This document shows positions 17,923 through 64,000 of a stretch of DNA of 64,000 nt, piece by piece. Source of the DNA: Candidatus Nomurabacteria bacterium (GTDB taxonomy: Bacteria > Patescibacteriota > Minisyncoccia > Phycocordibacterales > UBA9973); contig CAWHSF010000003.1 in the NCBI GenBank assembly GCA_963832025.1, forward strand, positions 143,665-207,664. The letters are read 5' to 3'. Within the stretch, counting starts at the first letter, position 1. The number at the start of each line of letters is the position of its first letter. The notes under the pieces are model-generated. The model saw only the letters and a program-made list of their open reading frames with translations, ran no database searches and had not been told where the DNA came from. Made by a program: the position numbers and the translations under genes.

Positions 17923-17923
17923 A

Positions 17924-20240: not shown

Positions 20241-20254
20241 CTACTCGTTTGGAC

Positions 20255-21851: not shown

Positions 21852-21855
21852 AAAT

Positions 21856-22929: not shown

Positions 22930-22962
22930 GATTGTATAGTAGCAAAAATTTTTTCTAATGTC

Positions 22963-22991
22963 TTGATTTAATAAAAAAACGAGTGTATTAT
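22963..22991 (+). promoter_or_regulatory. clpP promoter, apparently leaderless
   Basis: TTGATT, 17-nt spacer, TATTAT; 6 nt separate the -10 box from the ATG at 22998. No SD. Confidence 0.5.
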
Positions 22992-22997
22992 AGACGC

Positions 22998-23603
22998 ATG
23001 TTAATCCCAACCGTAATTGAAAAAAGCCAGTTTGGCGAAAGAGCTTACGATATTTACTCTCGCCTTTTACGTGAGCGTATTGTCTTTTTAGCTGGGCCAA
23101 TAGACGATAACACTGCAAATATCATTATTGCTCAGCTTTTGTTTTTGGAATCCGAAGATTCAAAGAAAGATATTTCACTTTATATAAATTCTCCTGGTGG
23201 CTCTGTCACTTCTACGATGGCAATAGTAGACACCATGAACCATGTCCGCCCGGATGTATCTACTTTTTGCGTTGGCCTTGCCGCTTCTGGCGCAGCCATT
23301 GTTCTCTCTGCAGGAAAAAAGGGCAAGAGATTTATTTTACCGAATGCTGAAGTCATGATTCATCAACCGATGGGCGGAGTAGAAGGGCAAGCATCAGACA
23401 TAGCCATCACGGCCAAACACATTCTGAAAACGAGAGACAATCTAAATAAACTTTTGGCAAAAAATACTGGCAAATCTTTGGCGCAAGTAGAAAAAGATGT
23501 AGAAAGAGATTTCTTTATGGATTCCGACGAAGCGCAAAAATACGGAATCATTGACGAGATTGTCACCAAATCCAAAACTCCAACTACGAAAAGTCAGGAT
23601 TAA
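22998..23603 (+). CDS. clpP: ATP-dependent Clp protease proteolytic subunit
   Basis: [26 protein letters not shown] and MIHQP motifs. Confidence 0.92.
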
Positions 23604-46524: not shown

Positions 46525-47604
46525 TTAGTAATTCCAAGGTTTCCAGGAATCATTTGCTCCTGGATTTTGAGCACCATGGACTTCAAAGTGTAGATGAGGG
46601 CCGGTTGCATGACCGGTTTCTCCGACAAGACCTATGACATCTCCCTGAGAGACTTCTGCCCCTGTTTCGGTGAGTATTTTTGACTGGTGAGCATATAAAG
46701 TCTGTGTTCCATTTGAATGATCAATAATTACAACATTTCCAAAACCTCCATTATATCCATATCTAGCAAGGATAACTTTCCCGTCAGCGGCGGCGTGGAT
46801 TGGAGTTCCAGTTGGTACTGCCAAGTCTACTGCGTTGTTGTCGTGAATACCTTGACTTAACCTGTAACCAGGTACAGGGTCAATATAATAGTCAGCAAAA
46901 TTTTGCGTAGGATGCTGTTCATAATACAACTTATCTTTAGCAATACTTGCGCCCAATTCTTTCTCTGGGATAGGCGTACCACTTTCCGCAGAAGATTCTT
47001 CGGCATTTGGAATAATAAGAGTTTCACCGGCAATTAGGGGGGTATCTAAGGTTATGTCGTTGGATTGAACAATATCACTTACATTAACTTTATAAATTTT
47101 TGCAATACTTTGTAAAGTGTCCTTTGTTTTAACGGTATATTCAAGTCCAGAACATGGGAGAATCAAAAGAACTTCGCCGGTGGTGATAGTGTCTCCTTTT
47201 TTCATATCGTTAGCCCAAAGAATAGTATTCACTGATACATTAAAAGTCTTAGCTATCCAGGCTAGAGAATCACCACTTTTTACTACATAGTTAGAATCAT
47301 TTCCGGAACAATCGAGTGTATCTGCTCCATTTGAAACGCCCATTGGTCCAGTGGGAGCAGCAATAGCCGTACCTGTACTGTCAATGGTTGTAGGAGAAAA
47401 GTCGTCATTGACATCTTGACTATCACTGACCTGAGAAGAATCGCTAACTTGAAGAGCTAAATCCGAACTTTGAGAATTACTACCGACTTGGAGGGTAGTA
47501 GTGGCTGTTGAACTAGAATCAGCAAAGGCTGGACCTCCGATAAATAAGGAAGAAAAAATATTAGCTTGAGCTACCCCTACGGGCACAAAAAGTGTTCCAA
47601 ACAA
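46525..47604 (-). CDS. secreted peptidoglycan hydrolase, 2 x LysM + M23 peptidase
   Basis: YVVKSGDSLAWIAKTFNVSVNTILWAN and YTVKTKDTLQSIAKIYKVNVSDIVQSN (LysM). GHATGPHLHFEV (M23). The signal-peptide region continues upstream without an in-frame ATG. Confidence 0.85.
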   Translation of the reverse strand: MFGTLFVPVGVAQANIFSSLFIGGPAFADSSSTATTTLQVGSNSQSSDLALQVSDSSQVSDSQDVNDDFSPTTIDSTGTAIAAPTGPMGVSNGADTLDCSGNDSNYVVKSGDSLAWIAKTFNVSVNTILWANDMKKGDTITTGEVLLILPCSGLEYTVKTKDTLQSIAKIYKVNVSDIVQSNDITLDTPLIAGETLIIPNAEESSAESGTPIPEKELGASIAKDKLYYEQHPTQNFADYYIDPVPGYRLSQGIHDNNAVDLAVPTGTPIHAAADGKVILARYGYNGGFGNVVIIDHSNGTQTLYAHQSKILTETGAEVSQGDVIGLVGETGHATGPHLHFEVHGAQNPGANDSWKPWNY

Positions 47605-47987: not shown

Positions 47988-49415
47988 ATGAGAGAACGAA
48001 AATTGCCCAGGAGAGTACAAGAAAAAATAGACAGAGGGGGCTTTAGTCATCCAGATATTGATGCCGCTAATTATCCAGTCTCCACGCAAGATATAAATCC
48101 AGAACCACACACAGGACTAGAGAAAACGCCAGGAACAAAAACCTTTGGAACTAAATTTATAAGTCAGCAAATTAAAACCTTGCTTGAAAGCCAAGAAAAG
48201 ATACAAGAAATAAAGAGTTTAAATGTTGTGGGTTCTGGCGGTGAGATAAGATTAGATACTTTTGTAAAGGCCAAAGATATAATAACAGCCACTGTCGGTA
48301 TACAAGCAGTTCTTGAAAACAAGAATGGTTCCTTGGCTGTAAAAAGTTATGAAATTGATGCTCCAATTTACGCAAAAGGGACAGTGGAAAAAATTATAGC
48401 CCCAAAGCTTGGTGAAGTTTCAGAATTATTAAAATCATACGTAGAAAAACAAGAGGGTAGGAAGGTAGCAAAAATTGAAATTGAAAACGGAGAGTTAAAA
48501 GTAACTTTTGCCAAACAAACAACAGTTCCTGTGGCAAAAAAGGAGGCGCCGGTTTTAGAAGCAACACAAGCAATACCTAAAGATCAGGTTGCACCAATCA
48601 CAGCAGAAACTATTGCAACACTTAAAAAAACAATAGAACACACTCAGGAGACACTTGAAAAAATTAAGGAAGAAAGAGCAGCATATAAAAAATTAATGGA
48701 AGATATGCGTAGAGAATTGGAAACACTGGAAAAAGAAGAGGGGACCACCGAGTCTGAAGCTCAACAAGTTGCTGTTCAAACACACAAAGAGATTTCAAAT
48801 GCTGATAAAACAAAAGTTGAACAGAGCAAAGATTCTACTGGATCTTTCACAAAAGAAGAAAAAGATAAAGAGGCTGATCCTATATATGAAGAGGCTAAGG
48901 CTTTAGTCCTAGAATTTGGAATAGCTTCTACTTTACTTCTACAAGGAAGATTAAGAATTAGATACAGTAGAGCTGCCAACCTGATAGAGATGATGGAAGA
49001 ACGCGGAGTTATAGGTCCAACGGATGGCATTAAGCCAAGAGAAATTTTAGAAAAAGTCACTCAAGCTAAGAACCCTACTAAATCCTTAGGAAAAGAACAA
49101 AAAATAACGGAGATTGGAAGAAAGTGGAAAGCAGAAATAGACAGCATGGAGGAAATTAAAAAAGAAAAAAGTTATTTAACAAGGAAAATTGAATCTGCAA
49201 TAGGAATCGAAAAAAAATACGCAGCCGAGTATCTTGAGATGCTTAACAATTCACCACTGGAATTTTATACAAAAAGATTAGGACACGCTACAATAACATT
49301 TTCTCAACAATGGGCTAAGGAAGAAGTTGAAAAAATTCAGAAAACAATTGATGAAATCAACACAATAAATACAAGGTACAGCAACATGCTTGAAAATTTA
49401 GAAAAAGAATCTTAA
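47988..49415 (+). CDS. coiled-coil protein with a stand-alone FtsK-gamma (KOPS-type winged-helix) domain
   Basis: DPIYEEAKALVLEFGIASTLLLQGRLRIRYSRAANLIEMMEERGVIGPTDGIKPREIL (nt about 48876-49056). No translocase motor motifs. Confidence 0.7.
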   Translation: MRERKLPRRVQEKIDRGGFSHPDIDAANYPVSTQDINPEPHTGLEKTPGTKTFGTKFISQQIKTLLESQEKIQEIKSLNVVGSGGEIRLDTFVKAKDIITATVGIQAVLENKNGSLAVKSYEIDAPIYAKGTVEKIIAPKLGEVSELLKSYVEKQEGRKVAKIEIENGELKVTFAKQTTVPVAKKEAPVLEATQAIPKDQVAPITAETIATLKKTIEHTQETLEKIKEERAAYKKLMEDMRRELETLEKEEGTTESEAQQVAVQTHKEISNADKTKVEQSKDSTGSFTKEEKDKEADPIYEEAKALVLEFGIASTLLLQGRLRIRYSRAANLIEMMEERGVIGPTDGIKPREILEKVTQAKNPTKSLGKEQKITEIGRKWKAEIDSMEEIKKEKSYLTRKIESAIGIEKKYAAEYLEMLNNSPLEFYTKRLGHATITFSQQWAKEEVEKIQKTIDEINTINTRYSNMLENLEKES

Positions 49416-52267: not shown

Positions 52268-54391
52268 GTGACAGATGAGACAAAACATTTGGAAGGATTA
52301 AACCCTGAGCAAAAAGAGGCGGCGCTTCATATGAAGGGTCCGCTTCTTATTGTGGCTGGAGCGGGAGCGGGCAAGACTAAAACTATTACGCACAGAATTG
52401 TGAATCTGATAAAGAATGGCGTTCCTCCAGAAAAAATATTGGCGGTGACATTTACCAACAAGGCTGCGAAGGAAATGCGAGAGAGAGTCATTGCAGAAAT
52501 TAATAAAAACTTCGTCGGCAATGCCTTTTCTCAGGTCCTCGGTTCTCCGGGTCCCTATCCCGGCCAGACCATTCCAAAAGGCCTTGCCGACTTCGTAAAT
52601 AAGGCACCTTTTGTCAGCACCTTTCATTCTTTGGGAGTTTTTATTATAAAAGAAAACGCCAGATTGCTTGGGCTGACTAGGTATTTCACGATTTTGGATG
52701 AGGGAGATTCGACAGGAATGATAAAAGAAATAATGAAAAGCTTGGGGATAGACCCAAAACAATACGATCCGAAAAAAATAAAAAATATTATTTCGCGCGA
52801 GAAAGGAAAATTTGTTTATTTAACGGAATACACGGAAAGAGAAAATAGCAGTCTGGGAAGAATTGTAGCCCAAATCTGGAATTTATATGAGAAACAAAAA
52901 ATGAAGGAAAATTCTTTGGATTTTGACGATTTACTTTTAAAAGCGACAAAATTGTTAAAAGACAACAAGGAAATTAGGGAACTTTATCAAGATAAATGGG
53001 AATATATTCATATAGACGAATATCAAGACACCAATGAAGTGCAATATTTGATGACCAAATTGCTTTCCGAAAAATACAAAAATATTTGCGTGGTCGGGGA
53101 TGCAGACCAGAATATTTATTCTTGGCGCGGAGCAAATTTAAAAAATATTTTGAGTTTTGAGAAAGATTATCCGAATGCAAAAATAATTTTATTGGAGCAA
53201 AATTATCGCTCGACCAAAAATATTCTGGAAGCGGCAAATGAAATCATTAAAAAAAATAAATATAGACCGGATAAAAATTTATTTACAAAAAATGTTGTCG
53301 GAGAAAAAATCGGCTTGTATGAAGCATTGGATGAAACCGACGAAGCGGATTTTGTAGCGACAAAAATTTTAGAACTAATGGACAAGGGAAAAGATTTGTT
53401 TTTGCGGGGTCTCTCGCAGGCCGACGGGCCGAGAGGGAACGCTGTGCGAGCACGCACAGACAGTGACCTCGCAAAAACAGAATCTTTTTCTTTGTCCGAA
53501 ATCGCCCTGTTATATCGCGCAAATTTTCAATCGCGCGCGCTGGAAGAAGCCATGCTTCGCTACAACATTCCATACCAAGTTTTGGGTGTTAAGTTTTTTG
53601 AAAGAAAAGAAATCAAAGACACTTTGGCATATCTGCGCGCAGCGCTGAATCCGGAAAGTTTGTCCGACATAAAAAGAATAATAAATTTCCCGGCGCAGAG
53701 GCATCGGCAAGGTTACATTATTGAAAATATTTGCCGGAGAACGGGAAACTTTACCGATAAAAGTAAGAATTAAAGTTGATAATTTTTATACAACATTGGA
53801 AGAAATAAAAGAAAAAATATTAAAAGTGAAAAAACGAGCGAGGTAATAAAATTTGTAGTGAAAAAATCCGGCATTGAACAAGAATTGAGTAGCGGGGGAG
53901 ATGAAGATATTGAAAGATTGGAAAACATAAAAGAGCTTGCGACCTTGGCATTAAAATATGATAATTTAGAAAATGGAGCCGGTGTAGAAAAACTTTTAGA
54001 AGATGCATCATTGGCATCGGACCAAGATTCACTGATGATAAATCAAGAGAAGAAAGAAAGAAAAGAAGTAAATGCAGTGAAATTAATGACCGTGCATGCG
54101 TCAAAAGGCCTTGAATTCAAATACGTTTTTGTCACTGGTTTGGAAGATGGACTTTTCCCGCACGAAAGACAAAATGAAGGACAGAGTGGTGAAGACAGAG
54201 AAGAAGAACGCAGACTTTTTTACGTGGCGCTGACCAGAGCTAAAGAAAAATTATTTTTATCTTTAGCAAATTTCCGTACAATTTTCGGCTCACGCAACAT
54301 AAACGCACCATCAGAATTTATTAGCGACATACCGGCAGATTTATTAGAAAAAGAAGGAGAGGGGCACGGCATAAAAACAATTTATTTATGA
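52268..54391 (+). CDS. pcrA: UvrD/PcrA-family superfamily-1 DNA helicase; a 140-nt internal segment lies in a shifted frame
   Basis: AGAGAGKTKTITHR, TFTNKAAKEM, HIDEYQDTN, VGDADQNIYSWRGA, YRSTKNIL, LLYRANFQSR and VKLMTVHASKGLEF motifs. The motif RGIGKVTLLKIF is readable only in the +1 frame between about 53696 and 53834. Confidence 0.88.
53391..53487. repeat. family-B-like element in frame inside pcrA
   Basis: Arms agatttgtttttgcg / cgcaaaaacagaatct. Interior tcgcaggccgacgggccgagag resembles the core gcgcaggcgggtagccgagca. Encodes DLFLRGLSQADGPRGNAVRARTDSDLAKTESF. Confidence 0.7.
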
Positions 54392-54416: not shown

Positions 54417-54532
54417 TAGTTTTTATTCAACACACATAAAATTCTGCTGAATTTTTGCTTTGCTCGGCTACCCGCTCATCGAGTCTGAGACTCTCAGAGT
54501 CGAATGACCTGCGCAAAGTTTCATAAAAACTA
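54417..54532. repeat. family-B palindromic element, 116 bp (inverted twin of 12501-12616)
   Basis: 114/116 identical to the reverse complement of 12501-12616. Confidence 0.9.
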
Positions 54533-54563
54533 CACCTGCAACGAATTTTGTTTAACAAAGAAG

Positions 54564-55508
54564 ATGCAACATAAAGCAAAAAAAACATTGGGGCAAAACT
54601 TTTTAAAATCGGAGCTAGCTCTGCGAAAGATTATTGAAGTCGGTGAAATAAAACCTGATGATATTATTTTAGAAATTGGTCCAGGAAAAGGTGCGCTGAC
54701 AAAAAAAATTTTAGAAAAAGCTGGAACGGTAATCGCTGTTGAAAAAGACCGTGAGTTGATAGAATTTTTGAAAACAAAATTTGCAAAAGAAATCACGACA
54801 AAAAAAATAATTTTGGTTGAAGATGATATTTTAAAATTTAATCTGGAGCAAGATATTCTCGAGCGAACCCTTGGTAGGAGCGACGGCGACGGACAGAGAA
54901 AATTTTCAGCAGAAAATTTTCGTGGTGAGTCCGAGAATATTTTGCTCCCGATTTCCTATAAAATTATTGCAAACATTCCATACAATATTACCGGCGCAAT
55001 CTTGAAAAGATTTTTGACAGAAAAAAACCAGCCGGAGCGCATGGTCTTGATGGTCCAAAACGAAGTGGCAAAAAGAATCGTGGCTTCCGACAAAAAAGAA
55101 AGTGTTCTTTCCATCTCCGTGAAAGCTTACGGTGAACCAAAAATGGTGATGAAGGTGCCAGCTCGATATTTTTCTCCAGAACCCAAGGTGGACTCCGCCA
55201 TAATTATTATAAAAAATATTTCTCGCAGACTTTTTGAAAAAAATAATACCTCACCCCAACCCTCTCCTTGCCAAGGAGAGGGGGGCAACGGGACTGTCCA
55301 AAATAAAATTTTGGACAGTCAGGCATTTGAAGAAAAATTTTGGGAAATAGTAAAAACCGGGTTTGCTCATAAGAGAAAAAAACTATCTGGCAACTTAAAA
55401 TCTCTCAAAAATTACGAAGTTTTAACAAAAAATGACTTTATGCAAACTTTGGGGAATAAAAGAGCGGAAGATTTGACGCTGGAGGATTGGATTTCGTTGA
55501 CTAAATAG
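54564..55508 (+). CDS. rsmA: 16S rRNA (adenine1518/1519-N6)-dimethyltransferase
   Basis: LGQNFL, EIGPGKGALT and ANIPYNIT motifs. Start trimmed to the ATG at 54564. Confidence 0.9.
   Translation: MQHKAKKTLGQNFLKSELALRKIIEVGEIKPDDIILEIGPGKGALTKKILEKAGTVIAVEKDRELIEFLKTKFAKEITTKKIILVEDDILKFNLEQDILERTLGRSDGDGQRKFSAENFRGESENILLPISYKIIANIPYNITGAILKRFLTEKNQPERMVLMVQNEVAKRIVASDKKESVLSISVKAYGEPKMVMKVPARYFSPEPKVDSAIIIIKNISRRLFEKNNTSPQPSPCQGEGGNGTVQNKILDSQAFEEKFWEIVKTGFAHKRKKLSGNLKSLKNYEVLTKNDFMQTLGNKRAEDLTLEDWISLTK
54853..54940. repeat. family-B-like element in frame inside rsmA/ksgA
   Basis: Terminal inverted repeats atattctcg / cgagaatat. Interior aaaattttcagcagaaaattttc matches the cagcagaa(a)tt signature of the intergenic copies. 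Encodes ILERTLGRSDGDGQRKFSAENFRGESENI. Confidence 0.7.
55248..55320. repeat. compound insertion in rsmA/ksgA: family-C palindrome plus a 13-bp-stem hairpin
   Basis: ccctctccttg c caaggagaggg (55260-55282) and gactgtccaaaat aaa attttggacagtc (55292-55320). Encodes TSPQPSPCQGEGGNGTVQNKILDSQ. Confidence 0.8.
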
Positions 55509-55638: not shown

Positions 55639-56556
55639 GTGGTTTGGGTTGCTGCTGCAATCGTGTGTATCGTCGTAATTTTTTTTATAAAAAACAAAAA
55701 TCTGTTTGAAGGGACTATAAAATATCTAGGAGGCACTCAAAAAACCGGACTGACTTATAATCCCAATGATACAGTGGCAGATTTGATAAACAAAAGCACG
55801 ACAGGGGACGGCATCCCGGATTGGGAAAAGATTTTATTAGGACTTGACCCCACCAAAACAGAAAATGTTCCAGGTGTTCCAGACAGTGTCACAATCCAAA
55901 AGATGATGCAGGCCAACACAGCAAGTGGGCAAACAGCAACAGACAACTCTAACTTATCTCAAACTGATCAAGTGTCCAGGGAATTCTTTGCCACCGTCAC
56001 CAGCCTAGAAGAAAGTGGCGCGATAGATGCAAATGGAAATATGGATCAGGACACGCAAGATCAACTTACCAATTCTCTGATAAACAATATTCAAAATTCT
56101 CCACAAAGAAAAATATACCAACTTTCTGATATCAACATAATAAATGACAACAGCATCGCAGCCATAAAAGATTATAATACGACCTTAAATATTATTTTCC
56201 CAAAAACAACTCTTAATTATAGTGTTGTGGATGTATTACAAAAATTTGCTCCTGACGATACTGGCAATAATACCGACCCATCTGTGTTGCCAGAACTTAC
56301 ACCAATTATCAGACAAATGAATGCTTCTTTATTTGGACTGCTAGCAATACCCGTGCCACAATCTTTAGCCACACTACATTTGGATGCCATAAACTCGACC
56401 GAGAGCGTAATTGAAAATTTAAATGATATACAACTTTACACTACTGATTCTATTGTTGCTTTTAGTGGAATGAGTAAATACGGACAAAATTCCACTGCCA
56501 TGTCGACCGCTTTTCAGAACCTTGCTAGTGCAATCGATCAGAAATTGAGTAATTAA
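55639..56556 (+). CDS. hypothetical N-terminally anchored membrane protein, first gene of the T4SS-like cluster
   Basis: TM VWVAAAIVCIVVIFFI, DGIPDWEKILLGLDP motif. GTG start. Confidence 0.55.
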   Translation: MVWVAAAIVCIVVIFFIKNKNLFEGTIKYLGGTQKTGLTYNPNDTVADLINKSTTGDGIPDWEKILLGLDPTKTENVPGVPDSVTIQKMMQANTASGQTATDNSNLSQTDQVSREFFATVTSLEESGAIDANGNMDQDTQDQLTNSLINNIQNSPQRKIYQLSDINIINDNSIAAIKDYNTTLNIIFPKTTLNYSVVDVLQKFAPDDTGNNTDPSVLPELTPIIRQMNASLFGLLAIPVPQSLATLHLDAINSTESVIENLNDIQLYTTDSIVAFSGMSKYGQNSTAMSTAFQNLASAIDQKLSN

Positions 56557-56587
56557 AAGATAAATTGTATAATACTACTATAAAAAA

Positions 56588-59488
56588 ATGAGGGGGAATA
56601 AAAAAACAACAAAATTTATTTTATATTTCTTAATTATCTTAGTAATCATACCAACTGTCATATTTTCTGCACCTCAAAAAACATATGCGGATCCAGCCTG
56701 TAGTGAAATTGTTGCTGCGGTGGATGTAGAGTTGGCTGAAGTAAAAGCAGATGCATTAACAGTGGCAGTCTCAGCAGAGAATGGGTGTTCTTTTGACGCT
56801 GGTTGTGCTCAGTCAGCCAGAAATATTTATGATGCTGCTGTTTCAACAGCAACGATAGGGGCAAGTGACGAGAAGAAGTCTATCTTAGCGACATGTAAAG
56901 ACCCACCCGCATCTGGTTGGATAGCAAGAACTGCTGCGTGGATAAATAATGTTAATACGCACTTAATCGCAGTATATGATGGGCAAGATCTTGGAATCGA
57001 TCTTGCAAGGGTAGGTAAAGAAGTTCTGAGACAGGCCTTAATCGCTCTCGGGCATCAACTTTTATCTCAGATGACCCAAAGCACTGTAAACTGGATCAAT
57101 TCCGGTTTTCATGGCTCGCCACTTTTCGTGCAAAATCCGGACCAATTTTTTAGTAACATCGCAGAGTCTGAAGTAAAAAATATTATCAACGAAGTGGGCT
57201 ATGATCCGAGGCAACCTTTTGGTCAACAATATGCTTTAAATTTGATAAATCAGTATAAAGCTAGTTCTGCTAGAGATGAGCAATACAGCTTAAGCCAAGT
57301 TACCAATAATCCTACTCTTTTGAATAGTTATATGAATAATTTTAGTAGCGGTGGCTGGAATGCATTTTTATTAAATACTCAGTATCCGCAAAATAATTAT
57401 ATTGGGTATACCATGATGATGAATCAAAACCTGGCTGCACAACTGGCAGGTAGTCCTGTTCAAAACACCATACAAAAAGCCACAACATTACTCAGCCAGG
57501 GTAATGGATTTTTGTCTCCGACAATGTGTCCAGCAAGTATAAATCCGAATTACAATACTGTTACGAATGAATTCAATCCTCCAGTCTTTAATGCCTCTGC
57601 AGCAAACGAAAAGGATTATAGCAACATACCTGATTGTATCCCTGCTTGTTCCAACCAAGCAGCAATAGACAATGAGCAGAAAAATGGTCTTATAGTAGAA
57701 CAATGTATTCAGGAGTTTGGAGTGTGTTCTAACCAAGCAGCCATAGATGCAGCTAATGCTGCTGGTGATACTGCATATGCTGCCGACCAAGCTGCTTTCA
57801 ACAAAACAAGTGCTTGTATCAATCCTGCAACTGGTAAAAGCGCTTTAGTTGCTACAACTCCTGGTGCAGTGGTTGGTAATCAAATAATGACAGCTCTGAA
57901 TTTAAAAACTGGGGTAGCCGGTTTGGATGCAGCTTTAGGAAATAGCATGTCGGCAATTCTAAATACATTGATGAATCATTTCTTGAGCGAGGGTTTGAGC
58001 GGACTTTCTACTGCAGTTCAATCTGAACCTCCGCTAGACAACTGGAGTTACAACGGGCAAAGTCTGGACGGCACAAATACTTTAGGAGCTTTAAATATCC
58101 CGACAAATGTTTCTTTGAATGCTGGAGACACGACAAGTACCGCTATTTCTGGAGGCACTGCGCCGTATAGTGTAGAAACACAATCTGCTGCTAGTTTGCA
58201 AATAGCCACAGCCACAATTTCTGGTAGCACTCTTAGCGTCACTGGAATCTCACAAGGGACGACTTCGATCACAGTGCAAGATTCTACTTCAGCAAACCAA
58301 GTCACGACTCCGGTTCCGATAGCGCAAGTAAGCACGATCACTATAGGGGGCGCCATCGGCACAGCGGGAACACTGAGCGCCACTATCAACAGCGTAGTGA
58401 CGAGTGTGTTAGTAACTTCAAATGACACTCCTATTACTGCAACTACCAGCTTGGCAAACGCCATTAATGCAAATAGTAAGATCAATGCTACCGTCATTGC
58501 GGCAAACAACACTCCCGGCACAATCACCATAACTTCAAAAGTTGCCGGCACAGCTGGAGTATTTTCTCTAACGTCTGCAAACACTACCACGTTGCTCACT
58601 GCGACTTCTGCTATCACCACTCCAGCTTCAGACGGACAAACCAACCAAAATCAAACTGCCATCGTCACGATAACGGTCGGAACAAATGGAAACATACTTC
58701 TAAATTTCAACAACCTTGCAAGCAATCCAAAAAATATTTCTGCCAGTGTCGGAAATTCAATGAACTTGACTCTCTCTGGTGGCACACAACCTTACAATGT
58801 ACAAACTGAACCAGACTCCACTATCGCGCTAGCTCTCATAAATAACAACACTCTCACTGTCGTCGGAGTAGGCCCTGGAATCACTTCGCTCTCGCTTCAA
58901 GATTCAAATGGAATCACAATAAATCTAGGCGTTACAGTGGGGAACGAAACGCCACTCGTCGCTTCACCTAGTTCTGTCTCTACAAATGTTTCCGGTACTA
59001 GTACTGCAACTATATCAGGAGGCACGCCACCTTACAACATAACCACAAATTCTTCCGACATAGCATCAGTAAGTGTTTCTGGTAACACCATCACGACTAC
59101 AGGTTCTGTAGAAGGAAATACTTCAGTAACAATCCAAGATTCTTATTCGCCAGCAGAAAGTATTACTGTGCCAATAAATATCGGCGCTACTACTGTTACA
59201 CTAAATAATACCAACGGCATATCTCCACAAAGTGTAACAATAAATACTGGTGGTTCAACAAATATAACAATGTCTTCAGTGATGTCTAACGGTACAGCAC
59301 CATATAGTATACAAACACCACCAAACAGTTCAGTGGCAAATGCTAGTATTTCAAATGGTGTTCTCACAATCACCGGCGTTGGAGCAGGGGCTACTACAGT
59401 AGTAGTCCAAGATTCTTCAACTCCCGCGCAAACAACCACTTTCAACATCACCATCACACAACCAGCCGGAGTAAATACGACGTTTTAG
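56588..59488 (+). CDS. large secreted protein with four Ig-like (Big-type) repeats
   Basis: Signal/TM at the N-terminus. Repeats of the type SGGTxPYxxxTxxxSxAxxxISGNTLTxTGxxxGxTxxxxQDSxxP occur four times. Confidence 0.65.
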   Translation: MRGNKKTTKFILYFLIILVIIPTVIFSAPQKTYADPACSEIVAAVDVELAEVKADALTVAVSAENGCSFDAGCAQSARNIYDAAVSTATIGASDEKKSILATCKDPPASGWIARTAAWINNVNTHLIAVYDGQDLGIDLARVGKEVLRQALIALGHQLLSQMTQSTVNWINSGFHGSPLFVQNPDQFFSNIAESEVKNIINEVGYDPRQPFGQQYALNLINQYKASSARDEQYSLSQVTNNPTLLNSYMNNFSSGGWNAFLLNTQYPQNNYIGYTMMMNQNLAAQLAGSPVQNTIQKATTLLSQGNGFLSPTMCPASINPNYNTVTNEFNPPVFNASAANEKDYSNIPDCIPACSNQAAIDNEQKNGLIVEQCIQEFGVCSNQAAIDAANAAGDTAYAADQAAFNKTSACINPATGKSALVATTPGAVVGNQIMTALNLKTGVAGLDAALGNSMSAILNTLMNHFLSEGLSGLSTAVQSEPPLDNWSYNGQSLDGTNTLGALNIPTNVSLNAGDTTSTAISGGTAPYSVETQSAASLQIATATISGSTLSVTGISQGTTSITVQDSTSANQVTTPVPIAQVSTITIGGAIGTAGTLSATINSVVTSVLVTSNDTPITATTSLANAINANSKINATVIAANNTPGTITITSKVAGTAGVFSLTSANTTTLLTATSAITTPASDGQTNQNQTAIVTITVGTNGNILLNFNNLASNPKNISASVGNSMNLTLSGGTQPYNVQTEPDSTIALALINNNTLTVVGVGPGITSLSLQDSNGITINLGVTVGNETPLVASPSSVSTNVSGTSTATISGGTPPYNITTNSSDIASVSVSGNTITTTGSVEGNTSVTIQDSYSPAESITVPINIGATTVTLNNTNGISPQSVTINTGGSTNITMSSVMSNGTAPYSIQTPPNSSVANASISNGVLTITGVGAGATTVVVQDSSTPAQTTTFNITITQPAGVNTTF

Positions 59489-59502
59489 TTTTACAAAAAT
59501 AA

Positions 59503-61965
59503 ATGAACACAAAAATAAAAAAAATAATTCCGTATTTCTTGACACTGATAATTTTAGTTGGAATTTTTGTTTTTGTGCCAACAAAGCAAGCGAAGGCAGA
59601 TAATCCAGGAGACAAGGGAACGTGTGTTTTAAATTGGTCATATAAATCTTGTACTGCCAAAAATGGCGCATCTACCTTACCACCAACTTCACCAGACAAC
59701 ATAAATGGACAATGTACCATGTCTGGATGGACGCGCAGTTCTTGTACTTCAAATTCTGCTCCTGCTGCGCCCAATTTCACCTTAACACAGTCATTAGTCA
59801 CAGGTTGTGTTAATCAAAGTGATGTTCTTGATCCCACAATAACAAGTAGCCCAAATTGCGTTTCCCCAAATGTCTGGGGACCAACTTATACAGATCCAGG
59901 AACGGCAGCAGCGCTTGCATCAAATACCCCACCACCTTCTGGGCAAACAGGGAATCAAGCAATTGATGGATATTTGCAAAAAAATACTTGCAATAATTTG
60001 TCGAATTTTTCTTTTTCAGGATGCATGGTGTTGGCTAGTTATTATTTATTTATTCCAATTCCAGCTTTACTGCTCACTGGCACTGCTTACTTTTTTAATT
60101 TCCTAGCGTCCATCACACTGTATAGCAATATATATTCTGGTTCCACTTTTATCCCCACAGCTTGGGGAGTGGTGCGAGACTTGTCTAATATTTTCTTTAT
60201 ACTCATTTTACTTTACATCTCCATTAGGTTGATTTTGGGAATAGACAGTCATGGGGTAAAACAAATGATAGGAAAAGTTGTAATTATTGCCCTCTTGATA
60301 AACTTTTCTATGTTTTTCACAGAAGTGATTATTGATTCTTCAAATATTTTGGCTTTGATTTTTTATAATAAAATGAGTGTGAGCACCACTGTGAACGGAG
60401 CGTCTACGCCGTATCAATCCGCAAACGGAGAAAAAGATATTGCTGGTGGAATGACAGCTGCTTTCAATCCTTTGTCATTATTAAAACCTGATTTTTTTTC
60501 ACCAATAACCGTGCCGGGACAGCCGCCGATACCAGGACAAACAGCATCACCATCAACAATAATGGGTATATTGATAATAGCAGGAGCACTGATGTGCTTT
60601 GCCGCCTATGCATTTTTTATCGCTGGTTTAAGCTTTGTCGGCCGCATGATTGAGCTTTTCATTTTAATTATATTTTCTCCTTTTGCTTTTATGTCCTCAA
60701 CTGTTCCTCTGTTAAATGGCATAGAAGACATAGGATGGAAAAGCTGGAGTCATAAATTGATAACATCGTCTTTCATGGCGCCAATTTTTATGTTCTTTAT
60801 GTATTTCATATTTCTTTTGATTCACGCAAATATGTTTAACACCTTATTGTCAAATACAAATCCAGGCTTCATGGTAAATTTGTTATATGTATTAATTCCC
60901 GCAATATTTATTTTAGTCCTACTCCTCAAAGCAACAAAATATGCCAAAAAGGGTTCTGGAGCATTCGGAGAATATGTGATGAAGGGCGCAAGTATGGTGG
61001 GTGGACTTGCCTTGGGGGCAGCGACGGGTGGTGCATCTGTTGTGGGCACAGCTACTTTAGGTAGAGCTGGTTCTGCCTTGGCAAACTCCGAGTGGGCAAA
61101 AACACACGGTGCAGTCGGAAGAGGATTGCAAAATGTTGGTAAGTTCGCTGGTTCTAGTAACTTTGACATTCGTGGTGTAAAAATTGGAGGAAAAACTCTC
61201 GCTTCGGCAACGGGTATGAATCTTGGTGAGGCAAAGAAGGGTGGATTCACCGAAAGAAGAAAGGAAGACGTAGAAAAAAGGAGAAAGAGGGCAGACGAAT
61301 TGAAGGTTGGAGAAGATGAAGAATTAACACAAACATTACACACACACGAAAACGCATTGCAAGATTTAAGAGCAGAAGGTTCACATGAAATTGAAGAAAT
61401 AGATAAGAGAATTGAGGGTGCAATTAAAGCAGATAAGGCAGCTCAATCTGCCCTAAATGCAGCACGGGGAACACCAGCTGAGGCAGCTGCACGAGCAGTA
61501 GCTTTAACAGCATCAAATAGGGTAAATGATTTAAGAGGACAAAGGGGTGCCATCAAAAACGCAACTGGTGATCAAGCAAACATGACAGATCTAAACACAA
61601 ATTTGACCAACAGGCAAAATTTCCTTCAATTAGCACAACAAGCTGGAAACCCAAGAGATATTGCCCAAGCTGAAGCTGACTTGCACAGCGCTCAAGTGGC
61701 ACTGAACGTAGCTGCAGTAGCTGCCCAAAATGGCAATAGGTCAATGAATAACTACGAAGATACTATTATTCCAGAAGCACACCACGCAATAGAAAATGAA
61801 AGCAGGAGAAGAAAAAGAATTTATGCCGATTCAGTAGAAGGTGGTGCTAGTAGAGTAAAAAACTTTATATTAAGTGGAGGACAATCTAGCCATAAAGGTT
61901 CAGTGGAGGCTGCGCATAAAATAAGAATGGAGGCAAAAATAGAAGAAAAGGGTAGTGGACATTAA
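59503..61965 (+). CDS. polytopic membrane protein, VirB6/TrbL-like topology, with a long charged C-terminal tail
   Basis: Signal plus Cys-rich ectodomain, at least 6 hydrophobic helices (aa about 180-480), Gly-rich segment, coiled-coil tail. Assignment by architecture and context only. Confidence 0.5.
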   Translation: MNTKIKKIIPYFLTLIILVGIFVFVPTKQAKADNPGDKGTCVLNWSYKSCTAKNGASTLPPTSPDNINGQCTMSGWTRSSCTSNSAPAAPNFTLTQSLVTGCVNQSDVLDPTITSSPNCVSPNVWGPTYTDPGTAAALASNTPPPSGQTGNQAIDGYLQKNTCNNLSNFSFSGCMVLASYYLFIPIPALLLTGTAYFFNFLASITLYSNIYSGSTFIPTAWGVVRDLSNIFFILILLYISIRLILGIDSHGVKQMIGKVVIIALLINFSMFFTEVIIDSSNILALIFYNKMSVSTTVNGASTPYQSANGEKDIAGGMTAAFNPLSLLKPDFFSPITVPGQPPIPGQTASPSTIMGILIIAGALMCFAAYAFFIAGLSFVGRMIELFILIIFSPFAFMSSTVPLLNGIEDIGWKSWSHKLITSSFMAPIFMFFMYFIFLLIHANMFNTLLSNTNPGFMVNLLYVLIPAIFILVLLLKATKYAKKGSGAFGEYVMKGASMVGGLALGAATGGASVVGTATLGRAGSALANSEWAKTHGAVGRGLQNVGKFAGSSNFDIRGVKIGGKTLASATGMNLGEAKKGGFTERRKEDVEKRRKRADELKVGEDEELTQTLHTHENALQDLRAEGSHEIEEIDKRIEGAIKADKAAQSALNAARGTPAEAAARAVALTASNRVNDLRGQRGAIKNATGDQANMTDLNTNLTNRQNFLQLAQQAGNPRDIAQAEADLHSAQVALNVAAVAAQNGNRSMNNYEDTIIPEAHHAIENESRRRKRIYADSVEGGASRVKNFILSGGQSSHKGSVEAAHKIRMEAKIEEKGSGH

Positions 61966-61977
61966 AATAAAAAATTT

Positions 61978-62478
61978 ATGACTGATAAATTAAAACAAAT
62001 AATTAAAGAAGAAACAGAGAAACTCCCAAAAGAAAACCAAGAAGCAATCAGCGCTTTGGATTGGGTAAAAATTGTGGAAGAGATAGGAAAAAAATATTCT
62101 TTGGAAGAAAACCAAATAAATGATTTAGAGACAGAAACACTTTTGGTTTTAGTCGGAATAAATGACCCACAATTTTTTGCAGTCAATGTTGAAAATCAAG
62201 TAGAAACTATCAAAGATTATGCCAAAAAAATTTCTGAGGAAATTACTAAGAAAATATTTATACCAGTCAATGAAGCTCTAGTAGAAAAAATTAAAAAAAG
62301 CGACAAGGTAAAAAAAGCAGGGGCAGAACAAAATCTTAATTTCATTTTATCAGGCGGGGATTATTCTGCTTTTCTAGATGAAAGTGATAATGCAAACATG
62401 CAAGAATCAACAGCCGAAGACGCAGTTGTTCCAGTTTTTTCTATCACGGAAGAAAATTTAAAAAAATCTAGTGTATAA
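61978..62478 (+). CDS. hypothetical protein, paralog of 62809..63456
   Basis: Shared N-domain: AISALDWVKIV...LETETLLVLVGINDP versus AINAVDWKDAI...LETETELVLCGLLNP. Confidence 0.55.
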   Translation: MTDKLKQIIKEETEKLPKENQEAISALDWVKIVEEIGKKYSLEENQINDLETETLLVLVGINDPQFFAVNVENQVETIKDYAKKISEEITKKIFIPVNEALVEKIKKSDKVKKAGAEQNLNFILSGGDYSAFLDESDNANMQESTAEDAVVPVFSITEENLKKSSV

Positions 62479-62794
62479 CCCCGTAGTAGAATTTTGATTT
62501 AATTATGTTCTATATATATTGTTTAGAAAGTTTAAAAAATAAAGAATTGTATATAGGTTTTACTAAAGACTTAAGAAAAAGATTGTTGGAACATAATCAG
62601 GGATTAAATTTTTCTACAAAAAGATATCTGCCGTGGAAAGTGATATACTATGAGGGATGTATTGAAGAAAGTGATGCGAAAAGAAGGGAAAAATATTTAA
62701 AAACGACACAAAGTGGAAGATTGTTAAAAAGAAGAATGAAAGATTATTTATATAAGAGTCGAAAAATTTAATTAATTAAAATTTCACTACAGGG
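62479..62794 (+). mobile_element. GIY-YIG gene cassette bounded by imperfect 17-bp inverted repeats
   Basis: ccccgtagtagaatttt (62479-62495) versus aaaatttcactacaggg (62778-62794), 14/17 complementary. Sits between two paralogous genes. Confidence 0.45.
62505..62771 (+). CDS. GIY-YIG nuclease-domain protein (UPF0213/YhbQ-like)
   Basis: FYIYCLES...ELYIGFTKDLRKRLLEHN. Confidence 0.8.
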   Translation: MFYIYCLESLKNKELYIGFTKDLRKRLLEHNQGLNFSTKRYLPWKVIYYEGCIEESDAKRREKYLKTTQSGRLLKRRMKDYLYKSRKI

Positions 62795-62808
62795 TATAAT
62801 AAAGGAAT

Positions 62809-63456
62809 ATGGAAGAGACAACTATAGACTTGTTACAAATAAAAATAGAAAAAGCAAAATCTCAACTTACAGATGAGACGTTGAATGCTATAAATGCCGT
62901 AGATTGGAAAGATGCCATTTTGAAAATGAGAACGAGCAAGGGTTACAGCTTTGAGCAATTGGGTGTCCTTGAGACAGAAACAGAATTAGTACTTTGTGGA
63001 CTTTTAAATCCCAGAGATTATTCCAAAGAACTAGAAAACAGAATGGGGATTTCAAAACAAGAAACGAATGAATTGGTGAACAAGATGAACGAACAAGTTT
63101 TTTCAAAAATTAAAGAAGAATTGATTAAATCTAGTGAAAGAAAGAGCACACCCCTGCCAACACAAATACCGTCAGCGATAGAAAAACCTGCAGAACAAAA
63201 AAACGATAACAACATACTAAGCAACGCTGGCATTGAAATACTACCAGAAGAAAATAATTTACCCGTTCCGGAAAAATTGGAAATTAATACTGCTCCAAAG
63301 ACAATAACTCAAACTCCTTCCATCTCGGCACAAAAATTGTCCGCCCCTGTGCAAACACCGGCAGTTCAGACAAATCATACTTTGGAAAATATTACAAAAA
63401 CCGTTCCCACTACCTATCCAAAAAATGGCGATCCGTATCGTTTGCCACCAGAGTAA
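62809..63456 (+). CDS. hypothetical protein, paralog of 61978..62478, with a Pro/Thr/Gln-rich tail
   Basis: See the paralog. TATAAT lies 8 nt upstream of the ATG. Confidence 0.55.
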   Translation: MEETTIDLLQIKIEKAKSQLTDETLNAINAVDWKDAILKMRTSKGYSFEQLGVLETETELVLCGLLNPRDYSKELENRMGISKQETNELVNKMNEQVFSKIKEELIKSSERKSTPLPTQIPSAIEKPAEQKNDNNILSNAGIEILPEENNLPVPEKLEINTAPKTITQTPSISAQKLSAPVQTPAVQTNHTLENITKTVPTTYPKNGDPYRLPPE

Positions 63457-63539
63457 AGAAAACAACACTTTAAAGTTATGAAAAACATAATTTTAAGGTT
63501 ATAATTAAATTGGCTTTTCTTGGTTTTAAGGCCGACCTT

Positions 63540-63975
63540 ATGCAATTTAAAGTTCCACAATTTTTAGACATAGAAGATAAAATTTTCGGACCCTTTACTT
63601 TTAGGGAATTTGTCTATTTAGCTGGCGCGGCTGGTCTGTGTTATGTATTTTACAAATGGTTCGGTTTGCTTCTCGGCATCGTGCCCATGCTCATCATGGC
63701 TGGCATTTGCATTGCTCTTAACTTTTTATCGCCCCAACAATAAGCCTTTGATTTTTATGCTGGAAGCGGGATTTAAATATTTCACCCAAAATAAGCTTTA
63801 CATTTGGAAAAAAGACAGTAAGAAAATTACTAATAATAAATCAAAAACTGCAAGTGAAGATAAAAATACAACAAAGCAGGAATATGGAAATAGGGTAAGC
63901 GGAAGCAAGCTACGAGATTTGGCTTGGAGTTTGGATGTTTTGGATTTAAGTAAAAATAAAAATAGTAATTCGTAA
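63540..63975 (+). CDS. PrgI-family (VirB3-like) small membrane protein, frameshifted at a T5 run
   Basis: MQFKVPQFLDIEDKIFGPFTFREFVYLAGAAGL is the typical PrgI N-terminus. It continues in another frame (...YRPNNKPLIFMLEAGFKYFTQNKLYIWKK) after 63723-63727. Confidence 0.6.
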
Positions 63976-63982
63976 AAATATT

Positions 63983-64000
63983 ATGGCTTTAAAAGCAAAA
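63983..64000 (+). CDS. start of the next gene (truncated by the window edge)
   Basis: ATG 8 nt after the previous stop (MALKAK...). By synteny a VirB4-type ATPase would be expected, but this cannot be seen. Confidence 0.3.

What the first reader, a model, noticed from the sequence alone, without database searches (positions are those of the whole stretch)
55639..64000. Type-IV-secretion-like gene cluster with large secreted proteins
A co-directional block of genes has the following members:
- An anchored protein (55639).
- A 966-aa secreted protein with four Ig-like repeats (56588).
- An 820-aa polytopic protein with VirB6/TrbL-like topology and a long coiled-coil tail (59503).
- Two paralogous small proteins (61978 and 62809).
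- A PrgI-family (VirB3-like) protein (63540).
- A further gene starting at 63983, where a VirB4 ATPase would be expected.

T4SS-like clusters are known in Patescibacteria and have been linked to the epibiotic lifestyle. The accessory proteins here have no recognisable function and could be substrates, adhesins or channel parts.
Basis: partly seen in the sequence, partly recalled or inferred. Interest (0 to 1): 0.55.

Follow-up and report, generated by a model that had tools for sequence, protein, structure and literature searches.

The report
Front half of Patescibacteria T4SS operon
This is the first half of a chromosomal type IV secretion gene cluster that relatives of this ultra-small (Patescibacteria) bacterium carry in the same place near the replication origin; this kind of system was described in 2023-2025, so the locus is a typical member, although half of its conserved proteins still have no known role.

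Summary

**What it is.** They are the 5' half of a 12-gene block with nearly fixed order in about 80 Paceibacteria/"Nomurabacteria" species:
- uvrD-rsmA | A(305 aa)-B(966)-C(820)-D(166)-E(215)-PrgI-TrsD-like-VirB4-J-pilin-like K-L | jag-yidC, with rnpA and dnaA next in the one relative read that far.

**Evidence for the parts.**
- PrgI passes Pfam's threshold.
- The gene at 63983 starts with "MALKAK". This is the exact N-terminus of a ~212-aa TrsD-like protein (a detached VirB4 N-terminal domain). The VirB4 ATPase follows it in every relative that reaches that far.
- C is only weakly VirB6-like. It has no TrbL HMM hit. Its best Foldseek match is R388 VirB6 (E 0.07), and it gives sub-threshold hits to a Mycoplasma ICE membrane protein.

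**Corrections to the finding.**
- A flanked GIY-YIG mobile ORF lies between the two paralogs.
- PrgI carries a 1-nt frameshift, probably an assembly error.
- The "coiled coil" tail of C is only partly supported.
- No VirD4 or relaxase is present.

**Verdict.** The system is already published (Wang 2023; Quinonero-Coronel 2025), so this is a new member of a known kind. A, B, D/E, J and L remain uncharacterised conserved subunits.

The parts
54504..55508 (+). rsmA/ksgA. Conserved left-hand neighbour of the cluster, together with uvrD at 52268-54391. Not a T4SS part.
   Evidence: tblastn against the L002 RsmA gives 62% identity. uvrD-rsmA directly precede gene A in nearly all related loci that extend that far (rsmA found in 67 loci). 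KsgA is reported as a frequent virB4 neighbour (PMC12102498).
55639..56556 (+). Gene A: 305-aa bitopic protein. It has an N-terminal TM anchor, then a DTDGDGIPDWE acidic (Ca-binding-like) motif and a conserved extracellular domain. Function unknown; I infer a scaffold role.
   Evidence: ORF; TM at residues 1-24. Homologue found in 69 of the related loci, directly upstream of B, median 39% identity. No Pfam, NCBIfam or PDB sequence match. No similarity to VirB5 TrwJ.
56588..59488 (+). Gene B: 966-aa secreted or anchored protein. It has a conserved N-domain (aa ~140-500) and a variable C-terminal half with four Ig-like repeats (nt 58106-58327, 58733-58945, 58973-59188, 59231-59461). Candidate surface adhesin and host-specificity subunit.
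   Evidence: The N-domain is found in 72 related loci, while the C-terminal half is found in only 22. Family length ranges from about 490 to 1330 aa (complete copies). Many database homologues cover only 35-46% of the query. Ig-like hits. The AF2 model of the N-domain was poor (pLDDT 56.6) and gave no fold match.
59503..61965 (+). Gene C: 820-aa 'extended VirB6-like' polytopic protein. Signal peptide; Cys-rich ectodomain (8 Cys, aa 41-174); TM bundle aa ~172-481 (nt 60016-60945); 335-aa hydrophilic, presumably cytoplasmic tail (nt 60958-61962).
   Evidence: AF2 of aa 140-530 gave pLDDT 84.7 and pTM 0.80. The Foldseek top hit is 8rt9_F of the R388 VirB5/VirB6 stalk (E 0.07, prob 0.98, TM 0.32/0.42), and 8rtd_L, 7o3v_J and DotA are also in the top 8. 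NCBIfam hits to Mycoplasma ICE membrane proteins NF045848 and NF045889 occur in 11 and 6 of 38 members, below the cutoffs. hhalign against a real VirB6 alignment gave prob 15.7%. No TrbL hit. The family has 5,223 cluster representatives at E<=1e-30.
61978..62478 (+). Gene D: 166-aa acidic cytoplasmic protein, paralog of E. Shared ~100-aa N-domain and a conserved EQNLxFILSGGDYSAF motif.
   Evidence: It was the best phmmer match in about half of the loci (36 ORFs). No PDB or Pfam match.
62478..62795 (+). Inserted mini mobile element: an 88-aa GIY-YIG nuclease ORF (62505-62771) flanked by 22-nt imperfect inverted repeats (62478-62499 and 62774-62795). Not a T4SS part.
   Evidence: PF01541 at 66.7 bits. 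Inverted repeats 82% complementary. Absent at this site in L002, where D and E are 35 nt apart. Homologous ORFs sit at other intergenic sites in or next to the cluster in 7 relatives.
62809..63456 (+). Gene E: 215-aa acidic cytoplasmic protein, paralog of D. Disordered C-half with conserved short motifs (ILAQKLS..V..P..KTEH.L.NITK and a terminal DPYR..PE). I infer a cytoplasmic adaptor or assembly factor.
   Evidence: Found in about 70 related loci directly upstream of PrgI. The exact protein is also on an independent Logan contig (L001).
63540..63975 (+). PrgI/VirB3-like gene, about 144 aa when repaired, interrupted by a 1-nt insertion within CTTAACTTTTTAT (63717-63729). The first part ends at a stop at 63741-63743. 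The rest reads in the +1 frame to 63975.
   Evidence: PF12666 at 30.5 bits against a cutoff of 27. tblastn with the intact L002 PrgI matches two frames. Relatives read ...CTTACTTTTTATCG... = ALTFYRP. The repaired protein aligns full-length with homologues at up to 83% identity.
63983..64000 (+). First six codons (MALKAK) of the TrsD-like gene, a detached VirB4 N-terminal domain of about 212 aa. By synteny the VirB4 ATPase (~617 aa) is the next gene, outside the window.
   Evidence: The N-termini of 16 relatives read MAL[KN]AKATQEF. The L002 homologue matches the VirB4_plasma N-terminal part (E 1.3e-10) and TrsD (E 2.7e-5). A precomputed PF26593 TraC-like hit is listed.

Best explanation
The region is the promoter-proximal half of the chromosomal, origin-proximal type IV secretion operon of a Paceibacteria-type patescibacterium. 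It descends from monoderm (MPF-FATA-like) conjugation machinery.

**Shown.** The operon order is A-B-C-(D)-E-PrgI-TrsD-like-VirB4-J-K-L, fixed between uvrD-rsmA and jag-yidC; rnpA and dnaA follow in L002, the one relative whose called genes were read that far. PrgI (VirB3-like) is present. The window's last gene is the TrsD-like N-terminal piece of a VirB4 that is split into two genes in this lineage.

**Inferred working model.**
- PrgI tethers the TrsD-like protein and the VirB4 ATPase to the membrane.
- The polytopic protein C takes the VirB6 role, as the membrane channel or assembly platform. Its long tail is presumed to face the cytoplasm.
- The pilin-like protein K is often fused to a cell-wall hydrolase. 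With J and L it forms the extracellular part.
- B docks through its conserved N-domain and exposes a fast-evolving Ig-like C-terminal half that recognises the host cell.
- A is a membrane-anchored scaffold.
- D and E are cytoplasmic adaptors.

No relaxase or coupling protein is present in the window or the related clusters, so I do not think it is a conjugation system. I think it is a contact-dependent conduit to the host cell. Uptake of host macromolecules is somewhat more likely than effector export, but the direction is not shown.
For: **Synteny.** L002 and 80 species-representative loci share the order. Gaps between genes are 7-83 nt and all genes run the same way.

**Component identities.**
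- PrgI passes Pfam's gathering score and has 2,539 homologues.
- The TrsD-like N-terminus is identical.
- H plus I together cover one VirB4 model: CD1110 positions 1-74 and 182-733, with I scoring 364.6 bits against a cutoff of 325.
- K matches PF18895 T4SS_pilin (39.2 bits against 26.6) and the Mbov_0395 pilin-like family in 25 of 33 members. Subsets carry VanY/LdcB or NlpC/P60 hydrolase domains.
- C, K and H+I match three Mycoplasma ICE families named after consecutively numbered genes: Mbov_0396, Mbov_0395 and Mbov_0397.
- The C fold model's best PDB match is R388 VirB6. In hhalign, C's invariant P393 and W415 align with VirB6's invariant P181 and W199.

**Selection.** Median identity to relatives is VirB4 89% and TrsD 79%, above uvrD and yidC at 75%. 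A, B, C, D and E are at 33-42%, and the B C-terminal half is mostly not alignable.

**No T4CP or relaxase.**

**Literature.** The Patescibacteria T4SS is MPF-FATA-related, lacks relaxases, and lies near dnaA/KsgA/RnpA in Paceibacteria (PMC12102498). It is essential for epibiotic growth of Southlakia (PMC10633639; PMC12857230).
Against: - The VirB4 ATPase of this genome is not in the window and could not be fetched.
- PrgI is frameshifted as assembled.
- C has no TrbL/VirB6 HMM hit and no PDB sequence hit. hhalign probability is only 16%, and Foldseek gave E 0.07 with TM 0.32-0.42.
- A, B, D and E have no detectable homology to any known T4SS part. Their roles rest on position, topology and conservation pattern only.
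- Transport direction and substrate are unknown. No experiment exists for this lineage.
Confidence: 0.82

Rival explanations
1. The cluster is a decaying, non-functional remnant in this genome, because the essential VirB3-like PrgI gene is frameshifted.
For: There is a 1-nt insertion and a premature stop at 63741-63743. No intact 100%-identical PrgI is in the protein database.
Against: All other genes in the region are intact. Both halves of PrgI still match relatives closely (75% and 58% identity to L002). The housekeeping uvrD 10 kb upstream carries two compensating frameshifts, which points to indel errors in the assembly rather than decay. The independent Logan contig shows no indels over 3.7 kb, but it stops 150 nt short of the site.
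Confidence: 0.08
2. It is part of an integrative conjugative element that transfers DNA between cells.
For: The parts descend from monoderm conjugation machinery: CD1110-type VirB4, PrgI, and Mycoplasma ICE-like proteins.
Against: - The cluster occupies the same chromosomal slot, between uvrD-rsmA and jag-yidC (with dnaA beyond them in L002), in about 80 species.
- No relaxase, coupling protein or integrase is present in the window or in the related clusters.
- G+C content is like the rest of the window.
- VirB4 is more conserved than housekeeping genes.
- The published survey found relaxases in only 103 of the surveyed Patescibacteria genomes.
Confidence: 0.03
3. Genes A, B, D and E are unrelated surface and cytoplasmic proteins that merely sit beside the T4SS genes. 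Only C, PrgI and the downstream genes belong to the machine.
For: None of the four has any sequence or profile similarity to known T4SS components. uvrD and rsmA are equally syntenic yet clearly unrelated to secretion.
Against: - Order and orientation are fixed, with 12-37 nt gaps and no terminator-like site between genes.
- D and E lie between C and PrgI, inside the T4SS core.
- A and B are envelope proteins, as expected for the missing extracellular parts.
- B shows the conserved-dock plus variable-tip pattern typical of adhesin subunits.
Confidence: 0.12
4. Functional rival: the machine exports proteins (effectors or hydrolases), or serves only as an adhesion pilus, rather than importing host macromolecules.
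For: Wang et al. suggested protein export or an alternative role. In subsets of species K carries cell-wall hydrolase domains that could act on the host wall. B looks like an adhesin.
Against: No effector-like substrates or coupling protein are encoded nearby. Import of DNA or other macromolecules is the hypothesis favoured in PMC12102498. A 2026 preprint reports host-RNA feeding with tubular structures that may be T4SS pili. Nothing here decides the direction.
Confidence: 0.35

Closest known systems
Patescibacteria-clade T4SS (Southlakia epibionticum SEML1_0006-0019, Wang et al. 2023; survey by Quinonero-Coronel et al. 2025)
   Same: Chromosomal and origin-proximal, next to KsgA and (in relatives) RnpA/DnaA. 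Has PrgI/VirB3, TrsD, an MPF-FATA-type VirB4, a VirB6-like polytopic protein and VirB2-like pilin. No relaxase, and no coupling protein in the cluster.
   Different: This is the Paceibacteria version. It has a single pilin-like gene with a variable, often hydrolase-bearing C-terminus, instead of the six-pilin array of Southlakia. It also has lineage-conserved genes A, B, D/E, J and L for which I found no named T4SS counterpart. The published survey reports few VirB8 homologues and no PrgB-like adhesins in Patescibacteria.
Mycoplasma ICE conjugation module (Mbov_0395 pilin-like, Mbov_0396 membrane protein, Mbov_0397 VirB4)
   Same: K, C and H+I give their best NCBIfam matches to these three families, which are named after consecutively numbered genes. 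Both are wall-poor or monoderm MPF-FATA-type systems.
   Different: All matches to C and K are below the curated cutoffs. There is no DDE transposase, TraG/VirD4 or other ICE backbone. Here VirB4 is split into two genes.
Firmicutes MPF-FATA systems (pCF10 Prg/Pcf; CTn2 CD1110-type VirB4; pGO1 TrsD)
   Same: PrgI family membership. In relatives, VirB4 passes the CD1110 family cutoff and the small upstream protein matches TrsD. There is a membrane-anchored cell-wall hydrolase, as with PrgK/TrsG.
   Different: No PcfC/VirD4, relaxase, or PrgB-type adhesin. No PrgH/TrbL HMM match for C.
VirB6/TrbL family, including 'extended VirB6' proteins with large hydrophilic domains (Alvarez-Martinez and Christie 2009, as cited in PMC12857230)
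   Same: Polytopic protein encoded near VirB3/VirB4. It has five or more TM helices plus a large C-terminal hydrophilic domain. Its best structural match is R388 TrwI/VirB6. Conserved Pro and Trp positions align collinearly.
   Different: It fails the PF04610 model, while the TrwI control scores 170.7 bits. hhalign probability is 16%, and TM-scores are 0.32-0.42.

Membership tests
Patescibacteria-clade T4SS (MPF-FATA-derived) | VirB4 ATPase of the MPF-FATA/Patescibacteria type in the cluster | not testable with these tools
   The window ends six codons into the gene before VirB4, and the source contig could not be fetched. In relatives a ~617-aa VirB4 follows (found in 65 loci); in L002 it scores 364.6 bits on NF045971 against a cutoff of 325.
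Patescibacteria-clade T4SS (MPF-FATA-derived) | TrsD-like protein next to VirB4 | tested here: met
   Window 63983-64000 encodes MALKAK. This is identical to the family N-terminus MAL[KN]AKATQEF in 16 of 16 relatives inspected. The L002 homologue hits TrsD (E 2.7e-5) and VirB4 N-terminal regions (E 1.3e-10). Only 6 residues of this genome's copy are visible.
Patescibacteria-clade T4SS (MPF-FATA-derived) | PrgI/VirB3-like small membrane protein | tested here: met
   PF12666 at 30.5 bits against a cutoff of 27 on the first fragment. The repaired protein matches 144-aa PrgI proteins over its full length at up to 83% identity. The gene is frameshifted as assembled.
Patescibacteria-clade T4SS (MPF-FATA-derived) | No relaxase and no coupling protein in the cluster; chromosomal site near KsgA and the replication origin | tested here: met
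   rsmA directly precedes gene A. No T4CP or relaxase domain occurs in any window ORF of 475 aa or more. In relatives the block ends at jag-yidC, followed by rnpA and dnaA in L002.
Patescibacteria-clade T4SS (MPF-FATA-derived) | VirB2-like pilin gene near virB4 | not testable with these tools
   It lies outside the window. In relatives K hits PF18895 at 39.2 bits against a cutoff of 26.6, and the Mbov_0395 pilin-like family in 25 of 33 members.
TrbL/VirB6 (PF04610) | Match to the family HMM | tested here: not met
   0 of 38 family members hit TrbL at E<=0.1. The positive control R388 TrwI scores 170.7 bits. The family profile has no PDB sequence hit to VirB6.
TrbL/VirB6 (PF04610) | Remote homology by profile-profile or fold comparison | tested here: inconclusive
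   hhalign against 11 genuine VirB6 proteins gave prob 15.7%, E 0.0017, over 134 collinear columns. The Foldseek top hit is the R388 VirB6 chain, but with E 0.07 and TM 0.32/0.42.
TrbL/VirB6 (PF04610) | Polytopic membrane protein (5 or more TM) encoded beside VirB3/VirB4 | tested here: met
   About 6-7 TM helices. The gene lies two genes upstream of PrgI (three counting the inserted GIY-YIG ORF).
VirB5/TrbJ pilus-tip proteins (considered for A and B) | Sequence or profile similarity to a VirB5 | tested here: not met
   hhalign of the B and A family profiles against R388 TrwJ gave prob 0.2% and 0.1%. The only lead is a sub-threshold DUF4141 hit in two B homologues.
Bacterial Ig-like repeats (Big_2 / PF13629-type) | Repeated ~70-aa beta-sandwich-type units matching Ig-like models | tested here: met
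   Four units share 39-43% identity with the first copy. PF13629 scores 25.1 bits against a cutoff of 23 in the window protein, and up to 73.9 bits in homologues. The fold itself was not modelled.

The most novel reading that the evidence does not exclude
Proteins A, B, D/E (and J, L downstream) would be lineage-specific core subunits. They would supply the functions that surveys report as scarce or undetected in patescibacterial T4SSs: a VirB8-like scaffold, a VirB5- or PrgB-like adhesin, and a coupling or adaptor role. B's fast-evolving Ig-like half, together with the variable, hydrolase-bearing end of pilin-like K, would set host range. The machine would serve as an import conduit for host nucleic acids.
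Probability: 0.25. Interest if true: 0.65.

Novelty: new member of a known kind. Interest (0 to 1): 0.3.

Why it matters
The patescibacterial T4SS is the first T4SS shown to be essential for the life of its bearer, and its substrate is unknown. This locus adds no new kind of system.

The comparison made here does give a clean parts list for the Paceibacteria version:
- a split VirB4;
- an 'extended VirB6-like' channel protein that escapes the standard HMM;
- a pilin-like protein often fused to wall hydrolases;
- five conserved proteins with no known counterpart.

One of those five, B, has the conserved-dock plus variable-tip layout expected of a host-recognition subunit. These are concrete targets for structure prediction of complexes and for genetics in the few cultivated strains.

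Tried and rejected
1. **Fetching the rest of the source contig.** The only same-organism contig (L001) ends at window position 63567. The genome-collection scan returned only relatives of at most about 50% identity.
2. **Structure of the B N-domain.** AF2 with 40 sequences gave pLDDT 56.6. Foldseek on that model gave nothing.
3. **VirB5-like idea for B or A.** Rejected at the profile level. The DUF4141 hit in two homologues lies near the signal peptide and is below threshold.
4. **Sequence-profile searches of A, J, L, H and D/E against PDB chains.** No usable hit.
5. **tblastn of the C membrane domain against 72,556 plasmids.** No match.
6. **A conserved LAS-type peptidase in K**, guessed by eye from L002. 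The K C-terminus is not conserved. Hydrolase domains (VanY/LdcB or NlpC/P60) occur only in subsets of species.
7. **Programmed frameshift in PrgI.** A +1 slip on the T run would restore the frame. But relatives are simply in frame and uvrD nearby has two more indels, so assembly error is the simpler reading.
8. **BLASTP self-comparison of B.** It missed the repeats at E<=0.01. Direct alignment showed them.

Full report
**Observation**

Gaps between them are short: A|B 31 nt, B|C 14, C|D 12, E|PrgI 83, PrgI|next gene 7. Hydropathy agrees with the description:
- The 305-aa protein (A) has a single N-terminal TM segment.
- The 966-aa protein (B) has an N-terminal signal-like segment.
- The 820-aa protein (C) has a signal peptide and about 6-7 TM helices between residues 172 and 481.
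- The 166-aa (D) and 215-aa (E) proteins are soluble and acidic.

B's four repeats lie at aa 507-580, 716-786, 796-867 and 882-958. They are 39-43% identical to the first copy and share a common motif. Weak but consistent Ig-like matches support them. D and E are paralogs (E 2e-10) that share a ~100-aa N-terminal domain.

Four corrections are needed:
- An 88-aa GIY-YIG ORF lies between D and E.
- PrgI is frameshifted (see "Integrity in this genome" below).
- The tail of C is a Gly/Ala-rich stretch followed by an Ala/charged helical region. Only 4 of 22 windows show heptad periodicity at z>=2.
- The gene at 63983 is not VirB4 itself (see "Identities" below).

**Context**

The closest retrievable relative is L002, where the C homologue is 54% identical. 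Its order is uvrD, rsmA, (three extra genes), A, B, C, D, E, PrgI, a 216-aa TraC-like protein, a 617-aa P-loop VirB4, a 328-aa protein (J), a 350-aa T4SS_pilin protein (K) and a 438-aa protein (L). These are followed by jag(R3H), yidC, yidD, rnpA and dnaA.

I scanned species-representative genomes with the C-family alignment and got 80 loci. All are labelled Nomurabacteria, Paceibacteria, Parcubacteria, Minisyncoccia or similar. Mapping their ORFs to the window and L002 proteins gave essentially one order everywhere: uvrD-rsmA-A-B-C-(D)-E-PrgI-H-I-J-K-L | jag-yidC. D was the best match in about half of the loci; the other genes appear in nearly all loci long enough to hold them.

**Identities**

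- **PrgI.** It passes Pfam's gathering score (30.5 against 27).
- **H, the TrsD-like protein.** Its family always begins MAL[KN]AKATQEF, and the window ends with MALKAK. In L002, H matches the N-terminal part of VirB4 models (Mbov_0397 family positions 102-233, E 1.3e-10; CD1110 positions 1-74) and TrsD (E 2.7e-5).
- **I, the VirB4 ATPase.** It covers CD1110 positions 182-733 at 364.6 bits, above the cutoff of 325. VirB4 is therefore split into two genes in this lineage, and the window holds the first codons of the N-terminal piece.
- **K, the pilin-like protein.** It has a conserved pilin-like hairpin: PF18895 at 39.2 bits, and the Mbov_0395 family in 25 of 33 members. Its C-terminus is not conserved. 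In subsets of species that C-terminus carries VanY/LdcB or NlpC/P60 wall-hydrolase domains.

**Is C a VirB6?**

- *By the family HMM, no.* 0 of 38 members hit TrbL, while the R388 TrwI control scores 170.7 bits. The family profile finds no VirB6 among PDB sequences. tblastn against plasmids finds nothing.
- *Indirect support exists.*
  - There are sub-threshold NCBIfam matches, nearly full-length on the profile, to the Mycoplasma ICE membrane proteins MMCAP2_0566 and Mbov_0396. These occur in 11 and 6 of 38 members, best E 7e-9.
  - A confident AF2 model of residues 140-530 (pLDDT 84.7, pTM 0.80) has as its top Foldseek hit a 272-residue chain of the R388 VirB5/VirB6 stalk. From my own knowledge of the lengths of TrwI and TrwJ, that chain must be TrwI/VirB6. 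The match has E 0.07, prob 0.98 and TM 0.32/0.42. Two more VirB6 chains and DotA are in the top eight.
  - hhalign against an alignment of 11 genuine VirB6 proteins gives only 15.7% probability. It is collinear over 134 columns and pairs C's invariant Pro393 and Trp415 with VirB6's invariant Pro181 and Trp199.
- *Reading.* I treat C as the functional VirB6 equivalent. Its layout fits the "extended VirB6" type described in PMC12857230. Family membership is unproven.
- *Family size.* The family is very large: 5,223 50%-identity clusters at E<=1e-30.

**A, B, D and E**

None has any Pfam, NCBIfam or PDB-sequence relative. The VirB5 idea for A or B found no support. B's N-domain could not be modelled.

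What can be said comes from pattern. Median identity of relatives to the reference proteins is as follows:

| Protein | Median identity |
|---|---|
| VirB4 | 89% |
| TrsD-like | 79% |
| uvrD, yidC (housekeeping) | 75% |
| PrgI | 64% |
| L | 57% |
| J | 55% |
| D | 42% |
| B N-domain, C | 40% |
| A | 39% |
| E | 33% |

B's C-terminal half is recognisable in only 22 of 72 loci. So the cytoplasmic motor is under very strong constraint, and the exposed parts evolve fast. B and K each combine a conserved module with a variable outer end, which is the layout of a host-recognition subunit. E ends in conserved short motifs (…KTEH.L.NITK…DPYR..PE) that look like docking peptides. That last point is inference only.

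**What it is not**

No ORF of 475 aa or more in the window has a coupling-protein or relaxase domain. The related clusters leave no room for one. G+C content is unremarkable. The fixed chromosomal slot argues against a mobile element.

**Integrity in this genome**

PrgI has one extra base within CTTAACTTTTTAT. Relatives read CTTACTTTTTAT, which encodes ALTFYRP. uvrD, 10 kb upstream, has two compensating frameshifts. Three indels in 10 kb, in genes that are otherwise highly conserved, point to assembly errors. An intact copy from the same organism could not be found.

**Literature**

- Quinonero-Coronel et al. 2025 (PMC12102498) describe exactly this kind of system. They report a Patescibacteria-specific VirB4 clade related to MPF-FATA, with TrsD, PrgI, VirB6 and VirB2-like proteins nearby. 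Relaxases are almost absent. In Paceibacteria the cluster lies near dnaA, KsgA and RnpA. They report few VirB8 homologues and no PrgB-like adhesins.
- Wang et al. 2023 (PMC10633639) showed that the Southlakia T4SS (SEML1_0006-0019) is essential for epibiotic growth and lacks recognisable coupling and relaxase proteins.
- A 2025 review calls these systems notable newcomers to the T4SS superfamily (PMC12857230).
- A 2026 preprint links possible T4SS pili to host-RNA feeding.

**Verdict**

The locus is a typical member of a published system, so novelty is low. The residual interest lies in the uncharacterised conserved subunits and in the unresolved function of the machine.

Noticed in passing
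window 62478-62795: An 88-aa GIY-YIG nuclease ORF is flanked by 22-nt imperfect inverted repeats and inserted between the paralogs D and E. Related ORFs (36-79% identical) sit at different intergenic sites in or next to the same operon in 7 other species. It behaves as a small mobile element that tolerates, or targets, this operon.
   Followed up: partly
window 52268-54391 (uvrD), about 53698 and about 53830: uvrD is split by two compensating frameshifts. The middle segment (RRGIGKVTLLKIF...) reads in another frame. Together with the PrgI indel this suggests indel errors in the assembly.
   Followed up: partly
window 54504-55508 (rsmA), esp. 55260-55282: rsmA carries two in-frame insertions relative to L002. 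The second contains a perfect 11+11 palindrome, CCCTCTCCTTG|CAAGGAGAGGG, followed by a second hairpin. It is a single copy in the window. Similar Gly/Pro-rich insert translations (…PSPLQGEGRGEV…) appear inside D/E homologues of other species.
   Followed up: partly
window 1348-9021, minus strand: Type IV pilus genes are present: PilC-like T2SSF (1348-2568) and PilB-like T2SSE ATPase (2687-4447). They are followed by three overlapping ORFs (4507-9021), two of which carry InlB B-repeat domains. These may be one very large surface protein split by frameshifts.
   Followed up: no
window 14659-23118, minus strand: Pyrimidine de novo synthesis genes are present: carB, carA, a dihydroorotase-like amidohydrolase and dihydroorotate dehydrogenase. 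This is unusual for Patescibacteria, which generally lack nucleotide biosynthesis.
   Followed up: no
window 46525-47604, minus strand: A LysM + Peptidase_M23 protein has homologues upstream of uvrD in at least 11 of the related loci. It is a possible T4SS-associated wall hydrolase (VirB1-like role), but such enzymes are also common in cell division.
   Followed up: partly
window 47988-49415: A 475-aa protein has as its only recognisable domain an FtsK gamma (KOPS-binding winged helix) domain, without the FtsK motor. It has no homologue in the 80 related loci.
   Followed up: no
related loci, e.g. L002:14163-16714: VirB4 is split into a ~212-aa N-terminal protein (TrsD-like) and a ~617-aa ATPase. 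Both are more conserved across species (79% and 89% median identity) than uvrD or yidC (75%).
   Followed up: yes
related loci, e.g. L002:17760-18812 (gene K): The pilin-like protein has a conserved hairpin and a hypervariable C-terminus. In different species that C-terminus carries VanY/LdcB-type or NlpC/P60-type peptidoglycan hydrolase domains. This is a pilin-hydrolase fusion of unclear meaning.
   Followed up: partly
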